A stretch of DNA of 64,000 nt from Escherichia coli (GCF_016903815.1 NZ_CP069973.1), one strand, 5' to 3'; counted from the stretch's first letter, positions 42,466 through 64,000 are shown. A program made the numbers and translations. The notes: generated by a model not told the origin, from the sequence alone.

Positions 42466-43656
42466 TTAATTGCTGTTAACCGAGGTGACCAGATTTGCCA
42501 GGTATTTATCGGTAATACGCTGGCGCAGGGTCAGGTTTTCAAGAGGAGGCACCGGTGTATAGTCGTAGTCGATATACAGTTTTCCGGCCTTGAGGGTTTC
42601 CGCATCGTTGGATTCTTCGCTGAACCAGCAGGTCGCATCCACGATATAGCCGTTTGTTTTCAGCTCACGGAATTTGGCATTGATGCCGTCAACGATGTCG
42701 CGAATCAGCGTTGCGGTGATGGGCTTGTCCACCGCCCACATGTGCGCCTCAGCCATCGTGTCGGCCATCACCTGCGCGGTGCGGGTGTAGTTTTCAAAGA
42801 GGAACAGCGGGTCATCAGAGCAGGTACGGTTACCCCAGAATCGGAAACCGTCGCGGCGAATCAGCGTAGTGACGCCTGACTCGTTAAGCAGGTCAGCATC
42901 GGTGCCGGACTCCTGCAAATCCCAGAATACAGATGCGCTGATGCCGGTAACACCGTTTACCCCGACGTTGGACAGCGTTTTATGCCAGCCCTGCTCCTGG
43001 TCGATTTTAGCGCGCAGACCCAGCGCACGGGCGGTGGCATACGCGGTGGCGGTGGTACTGGTGACCGTATCCCATGCGAGGAAATCCGGCCAGATGACCA
43101 TCAGCTCACGCTGGCTGAAATTCTGGCGGTAGGCTTTCACCTCGGAAATGGTCTTACAGCTCCATGCGCTGATATATCCGAAAGCGCGCAGCTTCTGACA
43201 GACGGATGCCAGTGCAACTGCCACCTCTTTGGTATCCAGTCCCGGCACACCGAGAATACGCGGTTTAACACCGGTTACCGACTCCGCCGCCAGCAGGGCT
43301 TTTAGTCCGGTGTACTGACCGTTTTCGTCGGTGGTGCCGATGATATTGGAAACGGTCTGCGCGAGTTTCGTTTCCTCGTCGTCGCCGGTGCCGTCTTCCA
43401 CACGCACGACTACGGTGACCGGTTTTGACTGGTCAGCGATGGCCTGCAACGACGCCGCCAGCGTGCCTTTTTTACCGGCCTTTGCAATTGCGCTCTGCAC
43501 ATTGGTAATCAGCACCGGTTTATTGAGGGGGAAGATTTCCGCATCCGCATCGCTGGCCGTGCAGACCATGCCGACAATGGCGGTGGATACGGTGGAAATG
43601 ACGCGGGTGCCGTCGTTAATCTCCAGCACCTGCACGCCATGATGATAGTCGCTCAT
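42466..43656 (-). CDS. FI: Contractile tail sheath protein FI
   Basis: 396 aa, same length and position as P2 gpFI. Confidence 0.9.
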   Translation of the reverse strand: MSDYHHGVQVLEINDGTRVISTVSTAIVGMVCTASDADAEIFPLNKPVLITNVQSAIAKAGKKGTLAASLQAIADQSKPVTVVVRVEDGTGDDEETKLAQTVSNIIGTTDENGQYTGLKALLAAESVTGVKPRILGVPGLDTKEVAVALASVCQKLRAFGYISAWSCKTISEVKAYRQNFSQRELMVIWPDFLAWDTVTSTTATAYATARALGLRAKIDQEQGWHKTLSNVGVNGVTGISASVFWDLQESGTDADLLNESGVTTLIRRDGFRFWGNRTCSDDPLFLFENYTRTAQVMADTMAEAHMWAVDKPITATLIRDIVDGINAKFRELKTNGYIVDATCWFSEESNDAETLKAGKLYIDYDYTPVPPLENLTLRQRITDKYLANLVTSVNSN

Positions 43657-43985: not shown

Positions 43986-44579
43986 TCAATTATGTAAATC
44001 TTTTGTTTTATGTTCTTTAGCGTATTGTGACAACAAATGGCTATAGCGTTTAAGCAAAATATTAGAAAGATTAAGCTCATTCATGAAGTGTTCTTCTAAT
44101 AAGTAACCATCAATATCAACTTTAATATCATTACCACTTTTCATCTTCTGTAACGTAGATTTCACACGCTCCAGCAGGATGCTTTGCTCATGGTAATAGT
44201 CCATAAGAAGAGTAACATCCTCTTTATCAAGCTTACTTAATTCGCTGAAGTAGGATTTAAACACTTTATCAGTCTGGTTTAATGCAATCTGTAAGCGAGG
44301 CCCCCCTAATGATTTGACATTAATGGCAAAAGGCTCGCCAACAAAATGCTCCGAATTTTCGTCAAAGCCAATATATCTCGTTTTATCAAGAAAAGTGAGA
44401 GCGCGATGGTTATTAGCGATTTCATATGCAAACATTGTTCTGATACTGTCCCTCTCAGCCTCCATGCTTATATCATCACGGTGATTTGTATAAAATATAT
44501 TTCCAACAAAGAGAACCATAGCAAGAATCACTGAACTTGCCTCCCAGTTAATATTTTTAAATCGTCGCTTAGTAAACAT
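43986..44579 (-). CDS. Hypothetical membrane-anchored protein (cargo gene at the P2 Z/fun position)
   Basis: 197-aa ORF in an AT-rich block between G and FI; N-terminal basic stretch plus one TM helix (SSVILAMVLFVGNIFY); no recognised catalytic motif. Confidence 0.6.
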   Translation of the reverse strand: MFTKRRFKNINWEASSVILAMVLFVGNIFYTNHRDDISMEAERDSIRTMFAYEIANNHRALTFLDKTRYIGFDENSEHFVGEPFAINVKSLGGPRLQIALNQTDKVFKSYFSELSKLDKEDVTLLMDYYHEQSILLERVKSTLQKMKSGNDIKVDIDGYLLEEHFMNELNLSNILLKRYSHLLSQYAKEHKTKDLHN

Positions 44580-44800: not shown

Positions 44801-45328
44801 TTATTGCGGCATTTCCGGCCATTCAGGATTTACAGGATCCACACGGCTGACCAGAACGCTGTAGCGTTCCCATGACTCCAGTCGTGCACGTTCCTCATCC
44901 GTCGCCATATTCAGCCTGACAGCGCGTTCCAGTGGCTGAATAACGCTTTCCGCTTCGGAAAGTAATGCGGCCTTTTGTGATTCTGCCTGTTGTTGCTGTT
45001 CATCTGCCGTATAAATCCGTTTAACCACAGCACCATCCTTAAACATCCATTTACCTGAGTCGTCAGCACGTCGGTTGGAGGTAATATCAGGAACCTCAAC
45101 AACGCTAAAACCTTCAGGGTTAAGCGTTGAAGCATCTCTGGTGATAGCGACAATAATATTATTTTCATCGTAAACAATCTTTATTGTGTCTGGCTGAAAG
45201 TTCTTCACTTCCTCATACCAGTTTTTTCCATCCTCAGAGTAAAGCCAGATAACTCCGTGTTTCTTTGTTAACTCATACTGTTCCAGTGTTTTAGCGTTAC
45301 CCGCTTTTATGTTCTTTAAGTGCATCAT
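44801..45328 (-). CDS. G: Tail fiber assembly protein G
   Basis: 175 aa, same length and position as P2 gpG. Confidence 0.85.
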
Positions 45329-48797: not shown

Positions 48798-49145
48798 TCA
48801 ACTCACAGGGATGGTTAATGAAAGTGGCTGGCCGGTGTCGTTGTGCTGGCCGGTTAACGTGACCGTCATTCGCCCGTCAAAACTGCGCTCAGTGGTGACG
48901 GATGACAGGGTGACGCGGGGTTCCCATTTCAGCACCGCCATGTAACAGGCGACCTTAATCTGCAACTCAAGCGCCGGGGTCTGCGGCTGGTCAATCATTG
49001 ATGCCAGCAACGAGCCGTAATCACGACGCATCACCCGTGAGCCGACCGGTGTGCGCAGGATATCGCCGATACTCTGGCTGATATGCTCAAGGTCAGTGAC
49101 AGTCAGGCCATCACTGCGATTCATTCCGAGATAACGCGCTGTCAT
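48798..49145 (-). CDS. W: Baseplate protein W (gp25-like)
   Basis: 115 aa, same as P2 gpW. Confidence 0.85.
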   Translation of the reverse strand: MTARYLGMNRSDGLTVTDLEHISQSIGDILRTPVGSRVMRRDYGSLLASMIDQPQTPALELQIKVACYMAVLKWEPRVTLSSVTTERSFDGRMTVTLTGQHNDTGQPLSLTIPVS

Positions 49146-49771
49146 AAAGGACTCCCGGTTGTGCCGCCGCTGTCGCCGGGGTGTTTGTGGGTATGCAGTA
49201 CCTTACCGTTTGATGAGAGTTCACCGCCGGTGTGTTCAATGTTGCCGCGCATCGTCCCGCCCTTCTGCACTTCCAGCGTGCCGGTAGTCAGTTTGTTAGT
49301 GCAGACCACTTCTGGTGTGTCCAGGGTGACGCGGGTTGATGCTTTCACCGTGACCACTGGTACCGTGGCAGTAACAGAATCAGAAGCCGTCACGCTGGCC
49401 GTTTTAATTCCGCTTACCGTGAGTGCACTGGTTTCAGGTTCATACTCAATCACCGCCCCGTCAGGGAAACGGATATGCAGGGCATCCGCCGACGCAGACG
49501 GCGCAGGGTTATCGCCGGAATAAATCCCCGGCAGAACGAACGCCGTGTCGAGTTCACCGCCCACGGCCAGAATCAGCACCTGTTCCCCCACGGAAGGTGC
49601 CCACCATGTGCGCGAACGCCCAGCGCGATGGGTCAGCCACTGAAGCCAGTCGGTGCACATGCCGCCAGTCTGCACACGGCAGCGACCGGCATTAAGGTCG
49701 GTTTCGACGATAATGCCAGTGCGAATCATATTGCGTATAAAGCGAAGAATTTCATTGTATTGTGCATTCAT
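49142..49771 (-). CDS. V: Baseplate spike protein V
   Basis: ORF track 235 aa; internal start MNAQYNEILRFIRNM gives about 209 aa (P2 gpV about 211 aa). Confidence 0.85.
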   Translation of the reverse strand: MNAQYNEILRFIRNMIRTGIIVETDLNAGRCRVQTGGMCTDWLQWLTHRAGRSRTWWAPSVGEQVLILAVGGELDTAFVLPGIYSGDNPAPSASADALHIRFPDGAVIEYEPETSALTVSGIKTASVTASDSVTATVPVVTVKASTRVTLDTPEVVCTNKLTTGTLEVQKGGTMRGNIEHTGGELSSNGKVLHTHKHPGDSGGTTGSPL

Positions 49772-49857
49772 TCGATAATAATGATTCTGTACAATCTCGA
49801 AGTAAATCACACCACGATTTCTGGTGCACAGAACAACAAGGGACAACAAAATCCATT

Positions 49858-50931
49858 ATGAGTACTTACTTTTTCTCGTCAGAAACAATGAAAGAATTGT
49901 TCAAAGATTATCTGGTCTTTTTGAACACGCTGACTCCCAGCACAAACTTTGAATCAAACAGAAACAAAATAATTGCTCAAGCAATAAACTTCATTTCCGA
50001 AAACCCTGAAGATTGGGACAAAAAATCCCAGTACAACATTGCTATGATTGGCGACACCTTTAAAAGTTTCTTAAGAGAAAAGGGGGAAGATAACAACAGC
50101 ATCAACCTTATATTCACTTGCTTTTTTAGATTTATCATTGAACCAAGCATTCTCTCTCCGGAAATAGAGTCTCACTTTTCACCACTAAGAACCATCAAGG
50201 ATTTTGCTCTGTATAACTATAATGAATTCGATGAGCGGAGCAGAGCACAGATAGACTTTTCTCTTAGAGAACTGCCATTAGCAATGGTTAAAGAAGTTTT
50301 AAGCTCCAGCAATGTTGACACATATAAAAAATACATTGATAGTTTAAACGAAGGGCGTCAATTTTTCGAAAAGTGCGACTCCTTCTTAAAGGAGCAACAT
50401 GCCAAAATAGAGTCAATTAAAGAGTCATTAAAAGGGTATGAGGTCGCATTTAATTTTGTTGGATTGTTTGATGGCTTTAATTCACTTGGCAAAAAGAAAG
50501 AAAGTGAAATCATGCTATCAAGAATAATTCTTATCATCTTGGCTATAATCATTCCCTCCCCGCTGATATACTATGGAATGCATAAATTACCAACTCTCGA
50601 AACGACAAATGCTGCCACATATTTTATGTCAGCACTACCTTTTGCATCAGTTACATTGATTTTCATGTATTACTTTAGAGTTGTACTGATAAATCATATA
50701 TCGTTACGAACTCAGATTATGCAAATAGAACTCAGAAAGAGCCTTTGTCAGTTCATTCAGAGTTATAGCGACTATTCCTCAGAGATAAGGAAAAACAATC
50801 CGGAAGCGCTTTCAAAATTCGAAGACGTAGTATTTTCAAACATCATGCTATCCGATGATAAGATACCATCTACATTTGATGGCATTGAGCAAATAGCATC
50901 GTTAATCAATTCATTAAAAAATGGAAAGTAA
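49858..50931 (+). CDS. Hypothetical two-TM membrane protein (cargo gene between V and S)
   Basis: ATG at 49858 (MSTYFFSSETMKELF) gives 357 aa; AT-rich; soluble N-terminal region, two hydrophobic helices (IILIILAIIIPSPLIYYG and ALPFASVTLIFMYYF), C-terminal tail; opposite strand to phage late genes. Confidence 0.65.
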   Translation: MSTYFFSSETMKELFKDYLVFLNTLTPSTNFESNRNKIIAQAINFISENPEDWDKKSQYNIAMIGDTFKSFLREKGEDNNSINLIFTCFFRFIIEPSILSPEIESHFSPLRTIKDFALYNYNEFDERSRAQIDFSLRELPLAMVKEVLSSSNVDTYKKYIDSLNEGRQFFEKCDSFLKEQHAKIESIKESLKGYEVAFNFVGLFDGFNSLGKKKESEIMLSRIILIILAIIIPSPLIYYGMHKLPTLETTNAATYFMSALPFASVTLIFMYYFRVVLINHISLRTQIMQIELRKSLCQFIQSYSDYSSEIRKNNPEALSKFEDVVFSNIMLSDDKIPSTFDGIEQIASLINSLKNGK

Positions 50932-50935
50932 TGAT

Positions 50936-50963
50936 AAAAGGCCAATAACTGGCCTTTTATTTA
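50936..50963 (+). terminator. Rho-independent (probably bidirectional) terminator
   Basis: aaaaggccaataactggcctttta: hairpin flanked by A-run and T-run, between the cargo gene (+) and S (-). Confidence 0.6.
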
Positions 50964-51033
50964 TTAACATGAAAATTCAAAATAAATTATGCTAATCAAT
51001 TGATTTCTATCTTATATTCTCAGATGATTAAAT

Positions 51034-51486
51034 CTAACGATTCAGGTGAGCCAGGATAATCTCTTCAATCATCTGCACATCCTCACCGGTAAAGCCAAGC
51101 AGAGGACGCGCCGGATAATCAATTTTCTTACCGTCTTTCCGGGTTTCTTCCGACAGACCGAACTGATGCACACTGGCGATTTTCGGTGACTTCCCGCCGT
51201 AAAACTCCATTGATGCCTGTTCAGGGCTGGCGCGGATATGCAAAAAACGACTGGTGATAAGTTTCGCAAACATTTTTCGCTTAACGCGACCGGTCTTTTT
51301 TCTGGCGCTCTGCTGCTGGCGTGGTGCGTAGGGTGTGCCGTCCGGGGCTTTCTGTGCCATCACCCGACGCTGCTGACTCTGCCGCAGACGTTTCGCCAGT
51401 TCTGCACTCAGTCGCCGACGCCCAGACGGTGACAGCGATTCAATCAGTCCGGTCAGCCGGTCTTCAAAACGCTTAAACTCATTCAT
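51034..51486 (-). CDS. S: Tail completion protein S
   Basis: 150 aa, same as P2 gpS. Confidence 0.85.
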   Translation of the reverse strand: MNEFKRFEDRLTGLIESLSPSGRRRLSAELAKRLRQSQQRRVMAQKAPDGTPYAPRQQQSARKKTGRVKRKMFAKLITSRFLHIRASPEQASMEFYGGKSPKIASVHQFGLSEETRKDGKKIDYPARPLLGFTGEDVQMIEEIILAHLNR

Positions 51487-57403: not shown

Positions 57404-59176
57404 ATGACCATCACCACAGACACCACTCTTTTACACGACCCGCGTCGTCAGGCGGCGCTGCTGTACTGGCAGGGGTTTTCCGTGCCGCAGATTGCCGCCA
57501 TGTTGCAGATGAAACGCCCGACGGTGCAGAGCTGGAAACAGCGCGACGGCTGGGACAGCGTTGCCCCCATCAGCCGTGTCGAAATGAGTCTGGAAGCGCG
57601 GCTGACCCAGCTCATCATCAAACCGCAGAAAACCGGCGGTGACTTCAAGGAAATTGACCTGCTGGGACGCCAGATTGAACGACTGGCACGGGTCAACCGT
57701 TACAGCCAGACCGGCAACGAGGCAGACCTTAATCCGAACGTCGCTAACCGCAACAAAGGCGGGCGGCGCAAACCGAAAAAGAATTTTTTCAGTGACGAGG
57801 CCATCGAAAAGCTGGAGCAGATTTTCTTTGAGCAGTCTTTCGACTATCAGTTGCACTGGTATCGCGCCGGGCTTGAGCACCGCATCCGCGATATCCTGAA
57901 ATCCCGCCAGATTGGCGCAACGTTTTATTTTTCCCGCGAGGCGCTGCTGCGCGCCCTGAAAACCGGTCATAACCAGATTTTTCTGTCGGCCAGTAAAACG
58001 CAGGCGTATGTGTTCCGCGAATACATCATCGCCTTTGCCCGGCTGGTTGACGTTGACCTGACCGGTGACCCGATTGTCCTGGGCAATAACGGCGCAAAAC
58101 TGATTTTTCTCGGCACCAACTCCAACACCGCACAGAGCCATAACGGCGACCTGTACGTCGACGAGATTTTCTGGATCCCGAATTTTCAGGTACTGCGTAA
58201 GGTGGCATCAGGTATGGCCTCACAGAGTCACCTGCGCTCGACCTATTTCTCCACCCCGTCCACGCTGGCGCACGACGCCTACCCGTTCTGGTCGGGTGAA
58301 CTGTTCAACCGGGGACGCGCCAGCGCCGCCGAACGCGTGGAAATCGACGTCAGTCATAACGCCCTTGCCGGTGGGCTTCTCTGTGCGGACGGCCAGTGGC
58401 GACAGATTGTCACCATTGAGGACGCCCTGAAAGGCGGCTGCACGCTGTTCGACATTGAGCAGCTCAAACGCGAAAACAGCGCCGACGATTTTAAAAACCT
58501 GTTCATGTGTGAATTTGTTGACGACAAGGCATCGGTGTTCCCGTTCGAGGAGCTGCAACGCTGCATGGTCGACACGCTGGAAGAATGGGAAGACTATGCA
58601 CCGTTTGCCGCCAATCCGTTCGGCTCCCGCCCGGTATGGATTGGTTACGACCCGTCACACCGTGGCGACAGCGCCGGATGCGTGGTGCTGGCACCGCCGG
58701 TGGTGGCCGGTGGCAAATTCAGAATACTTGAGCGTCACCAGTGGAAAGGCATGGACTTTGCCACCCAGGCTGAATCCATCCGCAAACTCACCGAAAAATA
58801 CAACGTCGAATACATCGGAATTGATGCCACCGGCCTCGGTGTCGGCGTGTTCCAGCTCGTGCGCTCGTTCTATCCCGCCGCGCGCGACATCCGCTACACG
58901 CCGGAAATGAAAACCGCAATGGTGCTCAAGGCCAAAGACGTTATCCGCCGTGGCTGTCTGGAATATGACGTCAGCGCCACCGACATCACCAGCTCGTTTA
59001 TGGCTATCCGCAAGACCATGACCAGCAGCGGACGCAGTGCCACCTATGAAGCCAGCCGCAGCGAGGAAGCCAGCCACGCCGACCTCGCCTGGGCGACCAT
59101 GCACGCCCTGTTAAATGAGCCACTCACCGCCGGTATCAGCACCCCGCTGACATCCACCATTCTGGAGTTTTACTGA
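57404..59176 (+). CDS. P: Terminase large (ATPase) subunit P
   Basis: Internal start MTITTDTTLLHDPRRQAALLYWQG gives 590 aa, as P2 gpP; divergent from O. Confidence 0.9.
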   Translation: MTITTDTTLLHDPRRQAALLYWQGFSVPQIAAMLQMKRPTVQSWKQRDGWDSVAPISRVEMSLEARLTQLIIKPQKTGGDFKEIDLLGRQIERLARVNRYSQTGNEADLNPNVANRNKGGRRKPKKNFFSDEAIEKLEQIFFEQSFDYQLHWYRAGLEHRIRDILKSRQIGATFYFSREALLRALKTGHNQIFLSASKTQAYVFREYIIAFARLVDVDLTGDPIVLGNNGAKLIFLGTNSNTAQSHNGDLYVDEIFWIPNFQVLRKVASGMASQSHLRSTYFSTPSTLAHDAYPFWSGELFNRGRASAAERVEIDVSHNALAGGLLCADGQWRQIVTIEDALKGGCTLFDIEQLKRENSADDFKNLFMCEFVDDKASVFPFEELQRCMVDTLEEWEDYAPFAANPFGSRPVWIGYDPSHRGDSAGCVVLAPPVVAGGKFRILERHQWKGMDFATQAESIRKLTEKYNVEYIGIDATGLGVGVFQLVRSFYPAARDIRYTPEMKTAMVLKAKDVIRRGCLEYDVSATDITSSFMAIRKTMTSSGRSATYEASRSEEASHADLAWATMHALLNEPLTAGISTPLTSTILEFY

Positions 59177-60210
59177 TGAGCAAGAAAAAAGGGAAAACAC
59201 CGCAACCTGCGGCAAAAACAATGACCGCCAGCGCCCCGAAAATGGAGGCATTCACCTTTGGTGAGCCGGTGCCGGTACTCGACCGCCGTGACATTCTGGA
59301 TTACGTTGAGTGCATCAGTAACGGCAGATGGTATGAGCCACCGGTCAGCTTTACCGGTCTGGCAAAAAGCCTGCGTGCTGCCGTGCATCACAGCTCACCG
59401 ATTTACGTCAAACGTAATATTCTGGCCTCGACATTTATCCCGCATCCGTGGCTTTCCCAGCAGGATTTCAGCCGCTTTGTGCTGGATTTTCTGGTGTTCG
59501 GTAATGCATTTCTGGAAAAGCGTTACAGCACCACCGGTAAGGTCATCAGACTGGAAATCTCACCGGCAAAATATACCCGCCGTGGCGTGGAGGAGGATGT
59601 TTACTGGTGGGTGCCGTCCTTCAACGAGCCGACAGCCTTCGCGCCCGGTTCCGTGTTTCACCTGCTGGAGCCGGATATTAATCAGGAGCTGTACGGCCTG
59701 CCGGAATATCTCAGCGCCCTTAACTCTGCCTGGCTGAATGAGTCGGCCACGCTGTTCCGCCGCAAGTATTACGAAAACGGCGCTCATGCCGGATACATCA
59801 TGTACGTCACTGATGCCGTGCAGGATCGCAACGATATCGAAATGCTTCGCGAAAACATGGTTAAGTCGAAAGGCCGCAATAACTTTAAAAATCTGTTTCT
59901 CTATGCCCCGCAGGGGAAAGCCGACGGCATTAAAATTATCCCGCTCAGTGAAGTGGCGACGAAGGACGATTTTTTTAATATCAAAAAAGCCAGCGCCGCA
60001 GACCTGCTGGACGCGCACCGCATCCCCTTTCAGTTGATGGGCGGCAAGCCGGAGAACGTCGGGTCGCTGGGTGATATTGAGAAAGTGGCAAAGGTCTTTG
60101 TCCGCAATGAGCTTATCCCGCTACAGGACAGGATCCGCGAGATAAACGGCTGGCTCGGTCAGGAGGTCATCCGCTTTAAAAACTACTCACTGGACACTGA
60201 CAACGACTGA
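59176..60210 (+). CDS. Q: Portal protein Q
   Basis: 344 aa, as P2 gpQ; start overlaps P stop. Confidence 0.9.
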   Translation: MSKKKGKTPQPAAKTMTASAPKMEAFTFGEPVPVLDRRDILDYVECISNGRWYEPPVSFTGLAKSLRAAVHHSSPIYVKRNILASTFIPHPWLSQQDFSRFVLDFLVFGNAFLEKRYSTTGKVIRLEISPAKYTRRGVEEDVYWWVPSFNEPTAFAPGSVFHLLEPDINQELYGLPEYLSALNSAWLNESATLFRRKYYENGAHAGYIMYVTDAVQDRNDIEMLRENMVKSKGRNNFKNLFLYAPQGKADGIKIIPLSEVATKDDFFNIKKASAADLLDAHRIPFQLMGGKPENVGSLGDIEKVAKVFVRNELIPLQDRIREINGWLGQEVIRFKNYSLDTDND

Positions 60211-60596: not shown

Positions 60597-62021
60597 ATGG
60601 TTTCGTCAAACGTCAAAATAGCAGCATTTCCAGCAAAAAGATTCTTTGTTGAGATGCTCACCCGAGATATTGAGTTGTCTGACTCAATTCTAGATTTACT
60701 AGATAACTGCCTAGATGGTGTATTAAGAAAAAACAATTTCACTCCAGAGCAAACCTTCGGTAAATCAGACGTTTACAAGGGTTACTATGCTCATATTGAA
60801 TTTGATGAGAATAGTTTCAGAATAACTGATAATTGCGGAGGTATTCCAGCAAAACTTGCGGAAAGCTATGCGTTTAGGTTGGGTAGACCTGCAGAACGTG
60901 AGGCGGATGATCTCCCGACAATTGGTGTATATGGTATCGGAATGAAACGAGCGATTTTCAAAATGGGGACATCTGCTCAGATTTTAAGCAAAACTGAAAA
61001 CGAACAATTTTCAGTTACCATTTCTCCTGAATGGATGGCTGATGATGAAAACTGGTCTTTGGAGTTAGAGCGAAATAATGTTGACTTAAACGAAACAGGC
61101 GTCAGCATCCAAATTAACAATTTAAGGAAAGATATTAAAGCATCCCTATCAAAGGATCGTGGCTTTGAAGAAGTTTTGATTAATATCATAGCAAATCATT
61201 ATAGTTTAATCATTAAAAAAGGGTTTGAGGTTAAAGTAAATGGATGTATTGTTAAGCCAAATAGCACCAATTTAATATTTGATGAAGAAGCCATTAAAGG
61301 CAATACCGACGGCATTGCTCCTTATGTATATAAAAATAATTCAAATGGAGTTTCAATTAAAGTTGCAGTTGGATTTTATCGTAACTTGCCTAGTGAGGAA
61401 GAAGAAGAGAATTTATTATCAGGCCGTTCCACAACAGAAAAAGCTGGTTGGACAATTATATGCAATGATCGTGTAGTCCTACATGCGGATAAAACCAAGC
61501 TTACAGGTTGGGGAGAAGCTGGAGTTCCACAATATCATACTCAATTCATCGGAATTTCTGGTGTTGTTATTTTCACATCATCAAATGCTGAATTACTACC
61601 TATCACTACAACTAAACGAGGTGTTGATGGTAACTCTGAGCTATATCTTTCTACTAAAGATTTTATGCGCGAGGGTTTAAAATTCTTCACGGACTTTACC
61701 AACAAATGGAAAAGTAACGCAGAGGAAAGAAAGCAAATTATTAATACTGCATCCAATATGGTTTCAACAACTGAGGTCGACTTTACTAAATCAATTCCTA
61801 GAGAAAACTGGTCGAACGTTCGACGTTCAATAGGAGGAGAAGTTTTCAAACCGAAGCTACCAATGCCTCGGGATTCGGATCCATTACGTCAGATAAAATT
61901 TAGCCGTAGACATAGTGAAATAAAACTGGTGTCAGAGTTTCTCTTTGATGATGCAACTCAACCACCAACAGAGGTTGGTCAATATTGTTTTGATGAATTT
62001 CTAAAAAAGGCTAAACAATGA
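60597..62021 (+). CDS. GHKL-superfamily (Bergerat-fold) ATPase, cargo gene 1 of a two-gene operon
   Basis: 474 aa, AT-rich. GHKL motifs readable in order: N-box DLLDNCLDG, G1 box ITDNCGGIP, G2 box GVYGIGMKRAIF. SD aaggat 6 nt upstream of ATG. Confidence 0.75.
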   Translation: MVSSNVKIAAFPAKRFFVEMLTRDIELSDSILDLLDNCLDGVLRKNNFTPEQTFGKSDVYKGYYAHIEFDENSFRITDNCGGIPAKLAESYAFRLGRPAEREADDLPTIGVYGIGMKRAIFKMGTSAQILSKTENEQFSVTISPEWMADDENWSLELERNNVDLNETGVSIQINNLRKDIKASLSKDRGFEEVLINIIANHYSLIIKKGFEVKVNGCIVKPNSTNLIFDEEAIKGNTDGIAPYVYKNNSNGVSIKVAVGFYRNLPSEEEEENLLSGRSTTEKAGWTIICNDRVVLHADKTKLTGWGEAGVPQYHTQFIGISGVVIFTSSNAELLPITTTKRGVDGNSELYLSTKDFMREGLKFFTDFTNKWKSNAEERKQIINTASNMVSTTEVDFTKSIPRENWSNVRRSIGGEVFKPKLPMPRDSDPLRQIKFSRRHSEIKLVSEFLFDDATQPPTEVGQYCFDEFLKKAKQ

Positions 62022-63010
62022 GTACTGGCGGAAGCATCCCATATCATTTGCGGCAAAACAAAGCCATTGAAAGGAATCTATTTATAGAATCCCTAAGAAG
62101 GTTAAACAATTATACAAACATATCCGAATATGTATATATAGGATTCGGGGGGCCTTTCCTCGAAGATTTCAAACAAATTCATAATTTGTTAAAAGTGACT
62201 AAAATGATATCTATCGAAGGAGATAAAAATGTCCATTGCCGACAACAGTTTAACAAACCATTATCTTGCATAAATTTGGGTGATACCCCAGAAATGAGCG
62301 GAGACTTCATCAATCGCTATAACTTTGACGATAAAACGATCATATGGTTAGATTATGCAACGCCTTCAGACTTAAATGCTCAGTTAAATGAAATAGTTAA
62401 TTTGGTTACAAAGCTAAAACCCAAAGACATTTTTAAGATCACTTTAAATGCAAACCCTGAAGCCTTGGGAAAAAACCCGAGCGAACGAGATCCAAGAGCA
62501 TATAGATTTCAAAAGATAAACGATATTTTGACTCAAGATTTTTTACCACCGAATGCAGTAGTCGAAGATGTCGGATTTAAAAAATACCCTATGCTCCTAG
62601 TTAATGCTATGAGACGCGCAATAGGGCATGGATTAAAAGGTCGAAATGACATAAGAATACATCCATTAACTTCTTTCGTTTATAAAGATGGCCAACAGAT
62701 GGTTACTTTAACAGCTATCGTTCTTGAAAACACTGATACAGAAGAAGCTAAATTTATTGATAATTCCAGAATCAAGAATTGGCCATTTTATGATGGGAAG
62801 TGGAGTAATCCTAAAAATATAAACGTCCCTGCTATGTCTTTAAAAGAAAGGATACATATTGAATCTTTATTACCCGAAGCTTCAGTAGAAAACATCCATG
62901 AAACTCTAGGGTTTTACATTGGCTCCACTCCTTCTGGAGCCAACTCCGATCTAAGTAATTTTATCGAATACTACAAGGTCGTTCCATGGTATTCAAAGAT
63001 TCTTTTTTAA
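62018..63010 (+). CDS. Hypothetical protein, cargo gene 2 (partner of the GHKL ATPase)
   Basis: 330 aa; start overlaps the upstream stop (ATGA), implying translational coupling. Gly-rich YIGFGGPF then ISIEGD and IIWLDYATPSD resemble a Rossmann-like nucleotide/SAM-binding fold only loosely. Confidence 0.65.
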   Translation: MSTGGSIPYHLRQNKAIERNLFIESLRRLNNYTNISEYVYIGFGGPFLEDFKQIHNLLKVTKMISIEGDKNVHCRQQFNKPLSCINLGDTPEMSGDFINRYNFDDKTIIWLDYATPSDLNAQLNEIVNLVTKLKPKDIFKITLNANPEALGKNPSERDPRAYRFQKINDILTQDFLPPNAVVEDVGFKKYPMLLVNAMRRAIGHGLKGRNDIRIHPLTSFVYKDGQQMVTLTAIVLENTDTEEAKFIDNSRIKNWPFYDGKWSNPKNINVPAMSLKERIHIESLLPEASVENIHETLGFYIGSTPSGANSDLSNFIEYYKVVPWYSKILF

Positions 63011-64000
63011 CTTTTAAACAGTAATCGTATAAAGGTAATAGCATAGCCTCAGCCACAAGCGGACTAACGCTATTACCTATCTGTCTAAAACTGTGCCACT
63101 TTGTAGGATGAAAACGGAACCAATCAGGAAACCCTTGTAACCTAGCTGCTTCACGAGGAGTTATCACCCTAGCTTGAGTAGGGTGAATTGGCCTAACGGC
63201 CTGATAACTCCCCTTGTCACTTCCTGTACCTGCTCTCAAAGTTGGACAAAAACCGTTAGGATTGAGTCGTTGTGATCTCGAAATCTTATCAGTTTCACCG
63301 AATGAAAGTTGTCTATATCTCCTGAGCACTTCCTCCGAATGAGCTGTACCTAAAAAGCCAGATACCAATCCTTTCTTTAAATTTTGAATGGATTCTGCAT
63401 CACCTACACCATTTGGTATATGTCCCCAAAGTCGCTCATAATAGTAACCATCTTTATCCATTTTTACTGAACGCCAGCCTTGCTCCTCTGTCTGCCACTC
63501 TTTTCTTATAGTTCGCGGTAATCCGTAGAGTGCATCTTTGACAAGAGTCTGCTCTATTATATTTTTAGGAAAAAAATCAGATTCTTTTAACTGATTAATA
63601 AAACCTCTTTTAAAACCCATGAAAAATATTCGTGTCCGTGTCGTAGGTGCTCCATAATTTGAAGCATTAACCCTTATTGGATGTAATAAACAATAGCCAT
63701 CTCTAACTAAAGAAAATGCTTCTTCTCTTACTGGATTATATTTCTCACCCATAATTCCTGGAACATTCTCTGCCAAAAAACAAATTGGAGATAACTCACT
63801 TACCAACCTAAAAAAATGAATATACAATTCATTTCTTGTATCATTGGCATTCCTTTTTCCAATGGTGCTAAATCCTTGGCAAGGTGGACCACCAATAACG
63901 CAATCAATGTCCTTTACAGCACATGCAGACAAAATATCTTTTGCTGTAAGCGAGCAGACATCCCGATGCAAATGTGTTGATTTTGGGAAGTTTAACTCAT
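62961..64000 (-). CDS. DNA (cytosine-5)-methyltransferase, C-terminal part in window (N-terminus beyond window end)
   Basis: m5C-MTase motifs: GGPPCQGFS (motif IV), FLAENVPG (motif VI), TTRTRIFF (motif VIII), IGNSVSP (motif X). Reading frame stays open past 63971 to the window edge, so motif I lies outside. Confidence 0.8.
   Translation of the reverse strand, partial: ELNFPKSTHLHRDVCSLTAKDILSACAVKDIDCVIGGPPCQGFSTIGKRNANDTRNELYIHFFRLVSELSPICFLAENVPGIMGEKYNPVREEAFSLVRDGYCLLHPIRVNASNYGAPTTRTRIFFMGFKRGFINQLKESDFFPKNIIEQTLVKDALYGLPRTIRKEWQTEEQGWRSVKMDKDGYYYERLWGHIPNGVGDAESIQNLKKGLVSGFLGTAHSEEVLRRYRQLSFGETDKISRSQRLNPNGFCPTLRAGTGSDKGSYQAVRPIHPTQARVITPREAARLQGFPDWFRFHPTKWHSFRQIGNSVSPLVAEAMLLPLYDYCLKVKKESLNTMERPCSIR

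What the first reader, a model, noticed from the sequence alone, without database searches (positions are those of the whole stretch)
49780..51030. AT-rich cargo gene between V and S encoding a 357-aa two-TM protein on the opposite strand
At the position of P2 orf30, an ORF (49858-50931, +) runs against the late genes, has much lower GC than its neighbours, and ends at a bidirectional terminator. The product has a roughly 230-aa soluble N-terminal region, two adjacent hydrophobic helices and a short C-terminal tail. That architecture resembles membrane-acting abortive-infection effectors, but I could find no identifying motif.
Basis: partly seen in the sequence, partly recalled or inferred. 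Interest (0 to 1): 0.6.

Follow-up and report, generated by a model that had tools for sequence, protein, structure and literature searches.

The report
Uncharacterised two-helix membrane protein, P2 prophage cargo
An AT-rich gene wedged backwards between two tail genes of a P2-like E. coli prophage encodes an inner-membrane protein from a large, unnamed family that rides in the variable cargo slots of phages and other mobile elements, so it is a good but untested candidate for a new one-gene anti-phage defence.

Summary
ORF 49858-50931 (+) encodes 357 aa at 35% GC, between gpV and gpS (53-57% GC, - strand), and ends at a hairpin terminator. It has two hydrophobic helices (about 219-241 and 255-279).

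The gene is real: dN/dS is 0.13-0.23. It belongs to a large family, 927 clusters at 50% identity, almost all about 350-370 aa. The family has no Pfam, NCBIfam or PADLOC match; its only label is PHROG 9373, "unknown function".

About 70 of 80 viral-contig relatives (32-100% identical) sit in the same V-S slot of P2-like phages, always AT-rich and without a conserved partner gene. Other members lie:
- beside a P2-type portal gene;
- next to Dazbog in an integrase island;
- in an inovirus-like element;
- in Klebsiella phage-plasmids;
- in a decayed prophage remnant in Enterobacter.

The N-terminal helical domain varies (23-29% pairwise identity). The juxtamembrane segments, TM2 and the 78-aa C-terminal region are conserved (40-65%). 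The periplasmic loop is not (10%).

My best reading (0.4) is a prophage-expressed sensor-effector that damages the inner membrane on infection, causing abortive infection. Superinfection exclusion and non-defence roles remain open. Nothing functional was tested. SLATT membership was tested with sequence profiles and was not met.

The parts
49858..50931 (+). Cargo CDS, 357 aa plus stop; single-gene module of an uncharacterised family (PHROG 9373)
   Evidence: ORF and translation. PHROG 9373 E = 2.6e-134. 349 and 927 homologues. dN/dS 0.13-0.23.
49858..50307 (+). Residues 1-150: compact all-helical N-terminal cytoplasmic domain, fast-evolving; proposed sensor
50308..50442 (+). Residues 151-195: long helix with a heptad pattern (consensus W-x3-L-x6-V-x2-L-x3-L) leading to the membrane
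   Evidence: Alignment consensus. Continuous helix 153-231 in the model. Pairwise identity 0.22-0.25.
50443..50511 (+). Residues 196-218: conserved juxtamembrane motif AFNFVGLYxGF..LG..K, then a K-rich stretch
   Evidence: N199, F200, L203, G206, F207, L210 and K214 are invariant in 36 sequences. Pairwise identity 0.49-0.58.
50512..50580 (+). Residues 219-241: transmembrane helix 1
   Evidence: Kyte-Doolittle peak of 2.4. Helical in the model.
50581..50619 (+). Residues 242-254: short periplasmic loop, not conserved
   Evidence: Pairwise identity 0.10.
50620..50694 (+). Residues 255-279: transmembrane helix 2 with conserved P261, Y271, F273, R274 and L277
   Evidence: Pairwise identity 0.40-0.52.
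50695..50928 (+). Residues 280-357: conserved cytoplasmic C-terminal region with motifs RxQxxQIELRKSLCxFIQxY, KFExVIFSNI and IPSTFDG
   Evidence: Most conserved part of the protein: pairwise identity 0.55-0.65 for residues 280-330 and 0.45-0.60 for residues 331-357. Residues 330-357 are modelled with low confidence.
49772..49857 (.). 86-nt V-cargo intergenic region. It holds the divergent late promoter region of the V operon (- strand); the cargo gene's own promoter is not identified and must overlap this region or the 5' end of gpV
   Evidence: P2 annotation puts the pV activator site 42-69 nt upstream of V. The gap is 83-96 nt in most P2-like loci. The consensus scan found no sigma-70 match here on the + strand.
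50934..50960 (.). Hairpin terminator flanked by A-run and T-run (bidirectional); ends the cargo gene and, on the other strand, the upstream late operon
   Evidence: -21 kcal/mol, z = -3.35. Equivalent terminator annotated in P2.
50961..51033 (.). AT-rich spacer that belongs to the cargo segment; similarity to P2 resumes at about 51029, at the end of gpS
   Evidence: The megablast piece to P2 begins at query position 1330, which is window 51029. GC profile.
49142..49771 (-). Left flank: baseplate spike gene V. Its first ~10 codons fall inside the low-GC, non-P2 segment (inferred)
   Evidence: Similarity to P2 on the left covers only about 40 nt of the query, an inference from the 8% coverage.
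51034..51486 (-). Right flank: tail completion gene S

Best explanation
The gene encodes an inner-membrane protein with both ends in the cytoplasm. It is carried as autonomous one-gene cargo by a P2-like prophage. I propose that it acts in conflicts between phages as a self-contained sensor-effector.

Proposed steps:
1. It is made in the lysogen and sits idle in the membrane.
2. Its fast-evolving N-terminal helical domain recognises a protein or state produced by an infecting phage.
3. The signal passes down the long helix to the conserved juxtamembrane segments.
4. The two-helix hairpin, probably as an oligomer, opens or disrupts the inner membrane.
5. The infected cell stops or dies before the invader completes its cycle (abortive infection).

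Shown here: the gene is real and under purifying selection; its predicted topology; which parts are conserved and which vary; its near-exclusive residence in the cargo slots of mobile elements; the lack of a partner gene.

Inferred, not shown: expression in lysogeny, sensing, membrane damage, and any anti-phage effect.
For: - Cargo status. The segment is 35% GC against 53-57% in the flanking genes, lies on the opposite strand to the late genes and has its own terminator. Only 59 of 1487 E. coli genomes that match the flanks carry it.
- Fixed slot. About 70 of 80 IMG/VR relatives, 32-100% identical, lie between gpV and gpS of P2-like phages. The same holds for Citrobacter and Yersinia prophages and for isolated Yersinia phages.
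- Alleles are swapped. Alleles 76% and 92% identical sit between flanking genes that are 99% identical.
- Company it keeps elsewhere. One member lies beside a P2-type portal gene with an Argonaute-associated-like neighbour (L091). One lies in an integrase island next to DzbA (E = 2e-54) and a C5 methyltransferase (L087). One lies two genes from a putAbiC gene (L013).
- No conserved neighbour. Extra genes found in the slot differ from locus to locus; by my reading of the translations these are a HigBA-like pair, an antirepressor-like protein and another membrane protein.
- Sensor-effector conservation pattern. Pairwise identity is 0.23-0.29 for the N-terminal domain, 0.10 for the periplasmic loop, and 0.40-0.65 for the juxtamembrane segments, TM2 and the C-terminal region. 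dN/dS is 0.37 in the N-terminal domain and 0.10 in the C-terminal part.
- Kept when the phage is gone. The ORF is intact between V and S fragments in Enterobacter chromosomes, in many assemblies, and stands alone inside the his operon of Pasteurella.
- UniProt names two relatives as SLATT 2TM effector proteins. This is a lead only.
Against: - No experiment or expression data of any kind.
- No match in PADLOC for 11 members, none in Pfam for 176 members, none in NCBIfam for 21 members, and none to PDB sequences.
- Fold searches gave only generic helical hairpins or bundles.
- No promoter was identified for the gene.
- In two distant P2-like loci the gene is co-oriented with the late genes (L088 and L089), which would be odd for a gene expressed in lysogeny.
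- Guilt by association is weak evidence, because phage cargo slots also carry genes unrelated to defence.
- A two-helix hairpin with large cytoplasmic domains also fits an injection blocker, a scaffold or a regulator.
Confidence: 0.4

Rival explanations
1. Superinfection exclusion. The protein sits in the inner membrane of the lysogen and blocks genome entry by incoming phages, as P22 SieA does, without killing the cell.
For: It is a prophage-borne inner-membrane protein carried as a single gene. SieA-type proteins are also inner-membrane, single-gene, prophage-expressed and very divergent in sequence (PMC10883804). Cargo-slot residence fits this reading equally well.
Against: The only periplasm-facing part is a loop of about 13 residues with 10% pairwise identity. 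Almost all conserved and all bulky parts are cytoplasmic, which is an unusual layout for intercepting an injection conduit. The family also occurs in an inovirus-like element, in phage-plasmids and inside a biosynthetic operon, so any target would have to be very general.
Confidence: 0.2
2. An orphan SLATT-like effector. The C-terminal two-helix module is a distant SLATT domain, and the protein is triggered by a nucleotide or nucleic-acid signal made by an unlinked system rather than by its own N-terminal domain.
For: [quoted passage not shown]
Against: No SLATT model was matched in Pfam for 176 members or in NCBIfam for 21 members, even at permissive E-values, and nothing was matched in PADLOC. 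No nucleotide synthase, reverse transcriptase or other sensor is a conserved neighbour. The N-terminal domain is present in every full-length member.
Confidence: 0.1
3. A lysogenic-conversion or host-fitness gene unrelated to phages, for example envelope stress tolerance, immunity to a membrane-acting toxin, or a regulator anchored in the membrane.
For: It is kept intact after prophage decay in Enterobacter and is embedded in the Pasteurella his operon. Phage cargo slots also carry virulence and partition genes (PMC9122126). Known defence models do not match it.
Against: Nothing links it to any metabolic or envelope pathway. The neighbours identified in non-P2 contexts are mostly defence or mobile-element genes. 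A fast-evolving N-terminal domain with a conserved membrane module is more typical of conflict proteins.
Confidence: 0.15
4. An accessory of the P2 lytic cycle itself, for example lysis timing, membrane remodelling for tail or virion assembly, or a counter-defence function.
For: The family shows very tight fidelity to one slot, next to the pV late promoter and downstream of the lysis and tail-completion genes. It is co-oriented with the late genes in L088 and L089. It is present in viable phages.
Against: Most P2-like prophages lack it: only 59 of 1487 matching E. coli genomes have it, and P2 carries an unrelated, non-essential orf30 instead. In about 70 loci it is on the opposite strand to the late genes, and in this window it has its own terminator. 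It persists where no phage remains.
Confidence: 0.1

Closest known systems
[quoted passage not shown]
   Same: A two-helix membrane hairpin with flanking cytoplasmic helices. It is found in conflict-related, mobile contexts, and a membrane-damaging effector role is predicted but not yet shown mechanistically (PMC9226505; bioRxiv 10.64898/2026.04.29.721553). Two relatives carry this name in UniProt.
   Different: No SLATT profile is matched by any of the members tested. This protein has its own 150-aa N-terminal domain and a long helix, has no partner sensor gene, and has a distinctive conserved C-terminal region (IPSTFDG and other motifs).
P22 SieA and other prophage inner-membrane superinfection exclusion proteins
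   Same: A single prophage gene encoding an inner-membrane protein, in a very divergent family, with a conserved motif on the cytoplasmic side (PMC10883804).
   Different: SieA is 162-164 aa with three predicted transmembrane segments and acts on the P22 ejection-protein conduit. This protein is 357 aa with two transmembrane helices and large cytoplasmic domains. No sequence relationship to any Pfam family was detected.
P2 Orf30, the occupant of the same slot in phage P2
   Same: Same slot between V and S, same orientation against the late genes, AT-rich, predicted membrane protein, non-essential cargo (translation).
   Different: Unrelated in sequence (hhalign probability 0.4%). It is 261 aa with a different arrangement of hydrophobic segments. 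Its function is also unknown.
Cargo of the known P2 hotspots: old/tin between A and Q, and Z/fun among the tail genes
   Same: AT-rich, swappable cargo between conserved P2 genes. Many such cargos are proven anti-phage systems (PMC9122126, PMC9519451). One family member sits beside a P2-type portal gene, the flank of the Q-A hotspot (L091).
   Different: The V-S (orf30) slot has long been known to be variable (PMC3091744, PMC6823313). None of the hotspot papers I read names it as a defence hotspot, and no cargo from it has been tested there.

Membership tests
SLATT domain (Pfam SLATT_1-6, DUF4231; NCBIfam SLATT models) | Significant match to a SLATT profile HMM | tested here: not met
   Pfam scans of the query and of 36 plus 140 family members gave no SLATT hit, even at E <= 0.1. 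NCBIfam scans of 21 members at E <= 1-10 gave none. The only contrary hint is the UniProt names of two relatives.
SLATT domain (Pfam SLATT_1-6, DUF4231; NCBIfam SLATT models) | Core of two (to three) transmembrane helices with flanking cytoplasmic helices | tested here: met
   Hydropathy and positive-inside analysis and the AlphaFold model. This feature is generic and not diagnostic.
SLATT domain (Pfam SLATT_1-6, DUF4231; NCBIfam SLATT models) | Genomic association with a nucleotide- or nucleic-acid-generating sensor (SMODS, SLOG, reverse transcriptase, RADAR) | tested here: not met
   No such neighbour in the P2-slot loci, or in the other contexts examined: two loci by precomputed Pfam, two by Pfam, and seven by my reading of ORF translations plus nine selected neighbours scanned against NCBIfam and PADLOC.
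Known anti-phage defence systems as catalogued in PADLOC-DB v2.0.0 | Match to any model of a known or candidate defence protein, including 2TM/4TM effectors and the PD-T4, PD-Lambda and PD-T7 systems | tested here: not met
   No families for the query at E <= 1. Only chance-level hits (E > 0.003) for 10 diverse members.
Known anti-phage defence systems as catalogued in PADLOC-DB v2.0.0 | Experimentally shown protection against phage | not testable with these tools
   Needs plaque and liquid-infection assays.
Abortive-infection membrane effectors (functional class) | Infection-triggered loss of membrane integrity and death or arrest of the infected cell | not testable with these tools
   Only the architecture and the genomic context are consistent with it.
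P2 accessory cargo at the orf30 (V-S) locus | Lies between V and S, is not conserved among P2-like phages, and differs in composition from the backbone | tested here: met
   The variability of the locus is established (PMC3091744, PMC6823313).
PHROG 9373 | Full-length match to the PHROG profile | tested here: met
   E = 2.6e-134, residues 13-356 against profile positions 7-387 of 388. The family is annotated 'unknown function'.
P22 SieA / lambda SieB superinfection exclusion families | Sequence match to the family profile | tested here: not met
   Neither family appeared in the Pfam scans. The architecture differs from the 162-164-aa, three-segment SieA (PMC10883804).

The most novel reading that the evidence does not exclude
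This is the founding example of an unnamed, widespread one-protein anti-phage immunity family, with at least 900 clusters at 50% identity in Enterobacterales, Vibrio, Pseudomonas, Pasteurellaceae, Neisseriaceae and others. A helical sensor domain without a close structural homologue is coupled through a long helix to a new kind of two-helix membrane-disrupting module. Its main home, the V-S (orf30) slot, would then be a further defence hotspot of P2-like phages that the hotspot surveys I read do not name. The family's persistent AT-richness may serve to keep a dangerous gene tightly repressed.
Probability: 0.35. Interest if true: 0.7.

Novelty: new variant of a known kind. Interest (0 to 1): 0.55.

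Why it matters
Prophage cargo slots have repeatedly yielded new immune systems, but studies of P2 have focused on the A-Q and Z/fun loci. This gene shows that the V-S slot is dominated, across several genera, by one large uncharacterised membrane-protein family that current defence catalogues miss.

If the family proves to be an anti-phage system, it would:
- add a compact single-gene module that is easy to test;
- provide a new membrane effector type;
- explain part of the "dark" accessory genome of P2-like phages, Klebsiella phage-plasmids and integrative islands.

If it does not, it is still a widespread conserved membrane protein of mobile elements whose role is unknown.

Tried and rejected
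- Pfam, NCBIfam and PADLOC scans of the query and of many members returned nothing meaningful.
- PDB sequence searches with two family profiles returned nothing below E = 0.008, and the best hits were designed helical repeat proteins.
- Foldseek against AFDB50 returned only family members.
- A search with the C-terminal module alone found only truncated family members and no bridge to another family.
- Homology to P2 Orf30 is rejected.
- I considered a link to the Tab tail-assembly blocker and dropped it. I read only its abstract and outline, which describe a Pseudomonas aeruginosa prophage system with a partner anti-Tab protein.
- Rfam found no RNA element in or around the gene.
- The consensus promoter scan found no convincing + strand promoter upstream. 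Alignment of upstream regions showed conservation that gpV coding and the pV promoter can explain.
- The literature searches found no paper that names this family or tests cargo from this slot.
- I first assumed that this prophage carries the Shedu and reverse-transcriptase cargos of E. coli 7/2. That was wrong: the coordinates did not translate and this window's other slots hold different genes.

Full report
**1. What is in the sequence**

The window carries an E. coli P2-like prophage. The 1.4-kb stretch around the finding is 100% identical to the matching stretch of a P2-like prophage in E. coli 7/2 and other complete genomes.

- An ORF runs from the ATG at 49858 to the stop at 50929-50931 on the + strand and encodes 357 aa.
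- It lies between baseplate gene V (49142-49771, -) and tail-completion gene S (51034-51486, -).
- The ORF is 34.9% GC (GC3 0.38), against 57% for gpV and 53% for gpS.
- By my arithmetic from the base composition, an open run of this length at this composition has a chance of about 4e-12.
- Three bases after the stop there is a 12-bp hairpin (50934-50960) with an A-run before it and a T-run after it. P2 has its annotated O-operon terminator at the same place.
- Similarity to P2 stops about 40 nt into the query on the left (inferred from the coverage figure) and resumes at about 51029 on the right. The swapped segment therefore includes the V-cargo intergenic region and probably the first few codons of gpV.

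**2. The protein**

- Hydropathy shows two hydrophobic helices, about 219-241 and 255-279.
- Lys/Arg residues lie before the first helix and after the second, which predicts that both termini are cytoplasmic and that only about 13 residues face the periplasm.
- AlphaFold models the protein as all-helical. It has a compact N-terminal domain (residues 9-149), a very long helix (153-231) that runs into TM1, and a second long helix (252-313) that begins as TM2. The C-terminal 28 residues are modelled with low confidence.
- The N-terminal domain modelled alone is very confident (pLDDT 94.5, pTM 0.90).
Homologues begin at the same position, F6 is invariant among 36 homologues, and most homologues have a clear Shine-Dalgarno sequence before that ATG. 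RefSeq's start at M11 is too short.

**3. The family**

- The only library match is PHROG 9373, annotated "unknown function" (E = 2.6e-134).
- Pfam, NCBIfam and PADLOC give nothing for the query or for up to 176 members.
- A word-indexed search found 349 relatives, all "hypothetical protein".
- An exhaustive profile search found 927 cluster representatives at 50% identity, 674 of them below 1e-30. Among the best 150 listed, almost all are full-length at about 350-370 aa.
- Named hosts include Escherichia, Citrobacter, Enterobacter, Cronobacter, Pantoea, Erwinia, Yersinia, Pectobacterium, Vibrio, Pseudomonas, Acinetobacter, Pasteurellaceae, Neisseriaceae and others.

Conservation is strongly uneven:

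| Region | Mean pairwise identity |
|---|---|
| N-terminal domain (1-150) | 0.23-0.29 |
| Long helix (151-195) | 0.22-0.25 |
| Juxtamembrane motif AFNFVGLYxGF (196-218) | 0.49-0.58 |
| TM1 (219-241) | 0.24-0.33 |
| Periplasmic loop (242-254) | 0.10 |
| TM2 (255-279) | 0.40-0.52 |
| Residues 280-330 (RxQxxQIELRKSLCxFIQxY, KFExVIFSNI) | 0.55-0.65 |
| Residues 331-357 (IPSTFDG) | 0.45-0.60 |

The gene is under purifying selection. dN/dS is 0.13 against a 92%-identical allele and 0.23 against a 76%-identical allele. In the second comparison it is 0.37 for the N-terminal domain and 0.10 for the C-terminal part.

**4. Where the family lives**

- Of 80 relatives kept from a scan of IMG/VR viral contigs (155 found), about 70 lie between recognisable gpV and gpS genes of P2-like phages, on the strand opposite to them. 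Their identity to the query ranges from 100% down to 32%.
- The same placement holds in Citrobacter (50% identical) and Yersinia (37%) prophages, and in the isolated Yersinia phages vB_YenM_31.17 and vB_YenM_06.16-2.
- In every P2-like locus the gene is 30-38% GC against flanks of 45-65% (mostly 56-63%), although the proteins have diverged to a third identity. The AT-richness is therefore a lasting property of the family, not only a mark of recent arrival.
- Alleles 76%, 92% and 100% identical sit between flanking genes that are 99% identical. Alleles are evidently exchanged within the slot.
- There is no conserved partner gene. When the slot holds more DNA, the extra genes differ from locus to locus. 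By my reading of the translations these are an antirepressor-like protein, a HigBA-like pair, and a second membrane protein next to duplicated V and S fragments.
- Only 59 of 1487 E. coli genomes that match the flanks carry this cargo.
- P2 itself carries an unrelated membrane protein, Orf30, in the slot, and phage R18C carries yet another ORF (PMC6823313). The orf30 locus has long been listed among the variable, horizontally acquired loci of P2-like phages (PMC3091744).

Outside this slot, members occur in these places:
- beside a P2-type portal gene, next to a protein that matches Argonaute-associated models (L091);
- in an integrase-bounded island next to DzbA of Dazbog (E = 2e-54) and a C5 methyltransferase (L087);
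- two genes upstream of a putAbiC gene, with resolvases further on (L013);
- in integrase/primase islands (L012, L090);
- in an inovirus-like element, judged from my reading of a Zot-like neighbour (L086);
- as a full-length divergent member in Klebsiella phage-plasmids of about 110 kb (hhalign probability 99.9%; 223 Klebsiella plasmid records);
- intact between fragments of V and S in Enterobacter chromosomes where the rest of the prophage has gone, in many assemblies;
- alone inside the his operon of Pasteurella multocida;
- truncated, next to an insertion-sequence transposase, in Neisseriaceae.

**5. Structure comparisons**

- Foldseek against AFDB50 returned only family members. UniProt names two of them as SLATT 2TM effector proteins.
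- Profile searches against PDB sequences found nothing.

**6. Interpretation**

The combination that matters is this:
- autonomous one-gene cargo of many kinds of mobile element;
- rapid allele exchange within the slot;
- occasional defence genes as neighbours;
- a fast-evolving cytoplasmic domain joined to a conserved membrane module;
- retention after prophage decay.

This pattern is what is seen for prophage-encoded immunity proteins. I therefore favour a sensor-effector that damages the inner membrane on infection, giving abortive infection (confidence 0.4). Only the anatomy, the selection and the genomic context are shown. Expression, sensing, membrane damage and protection are all inferred.

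The main rival is superinfection exclusion in the manner of P22 SieA (PMC10883804). The tiny, unconserved periplasmic loop and the dominance of cytoplasmic parts argue against it. The other rivals are:
- an orphan SLATT-like effector triggered from elsewhere;
- a host-fitness gene unrelated to phages;
- a P2 lytic-cycle accessory, which the co-oriented copies in L088 and L089 keep alive.

**7. Comparison with what is known**

The protein would work like a SLATT-type or other membrane abortive-infection effector. Membership of SLATT was tested with sequence profiles and not met, and it has no partner sensor gene.

None of the P2 hotspot studies I read names the V-S slot or tests its cargo: Rousset 2022, Vassallo 2022, the iLund4u preprint and Moura de Sousa 2026. 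The last one mentions hotspots "within the late genes" only in general terms. I found no paper on this family.

**8. Verdict**

This is a real, conserved, uncharacterised membrane-protein gene in a classic but neglected P2 cargo slot. It is a credible, easily tested defence candidate. It is not yet more than that.

Noticed in passing
window 49858-50931 and L002-L094 (P2-like loci): The gene is 30-38% GC in every P2-like locus examined, while its flanks are 45-65% (mostly 56-63%). This holds even though the proteins are only 32-50% identical to one another. The AT-richness is therefore maintained over long divergence, which points to selection (for example H-NS silencing of a dangerous gene) or to constant exchange from an AT-rich gene pool, rather than to recent acquisition alone.
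   Followed up: partly
window 43986-44579 (-), in the Z/fun slot between tail sheath gene FI (42466-43656) and tail fibre assembly gene G (44801-45328): A second AT-rich cargo ORF of 197 aa with one N-terminal hydrophobic helix. It has no NCBIfam match and was not scanned against PADLOC.
   Followed up: partly
window 60597-63971, just after the portal gene (59176-60210), where P2 has its Q-A (old/tin) hotspot: Two overlapping ORFs of 474 and 330 aa with no PADLOC or NCBIfam match lie next to a convergent C5 DNA methyltransferase (62961-63971, -; MTase_II E = 1.4e-81). This may be an uncharacterised restriction-modification-like or methyltransferase-linked system. It differs from the cargo at that position in E. 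coli 7/2, whose V-S stretch is identical.
   Followed up: partly
window 49888 (M11): RefSeq/PGAP annotates the gene (WP_223479977.1) from the internal Met11, giving 347 aa. Family alignments and the ribosome-binding sites of homologues support the 357-aa form that starts at 49858.
   Followed up: yes
L005 7440-9223 and L006 563-2346 (Enterobacter): The cargo ORF is intact between a 125-aa fragment of gpV and a short fragment of gpS, embedded among ordinary chromosomal genes (thiol-disulfide exchange genes, a chemoreceptor gene, sugar-utilisation genes) in many assemblies. The prophage has decayed to just this gene.
   Followed up: partly
L061 1677-5736: Two tandem copies of V and S gene fragments each frame a different cargo: this family, and an unrelated 256-aa multi-helix membrane protein. 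This looks like the footprint of recombination between phages carrying different cargos in the slot.
   Followed up: no
L088 and L089: In two distant P2-like phages (gpV 37% identical) the family member sits between S and V but on the same strand as the late genes, unlike the roughly 70 other loci.
   Followed up: no
L097 1481-9318 (Pasteurella multocida his operon): The histidine biosynthesis operon is interrupted by several inserted genes: a Fic/RhuM protein, this family's member between the genes for imidazoleglycerol-phosphate dehydratase and the glutamine amidotransferase subunit, and a DUF2726 protein. All are co-oriented with the operon.
   Followed up: no
window 49772-49857 and the upstream regions of 57 loci: The distance from the gpV start to the cargo start is held at 83-96 nt in most loci. 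It is almost filled by the pV late promoter and its activator site, so the cargo promoter must overlap pV or lie inside gpV. This raises the possibility that late-gene activation and cargo expression are mutually exclusive.
   Followed up: partly
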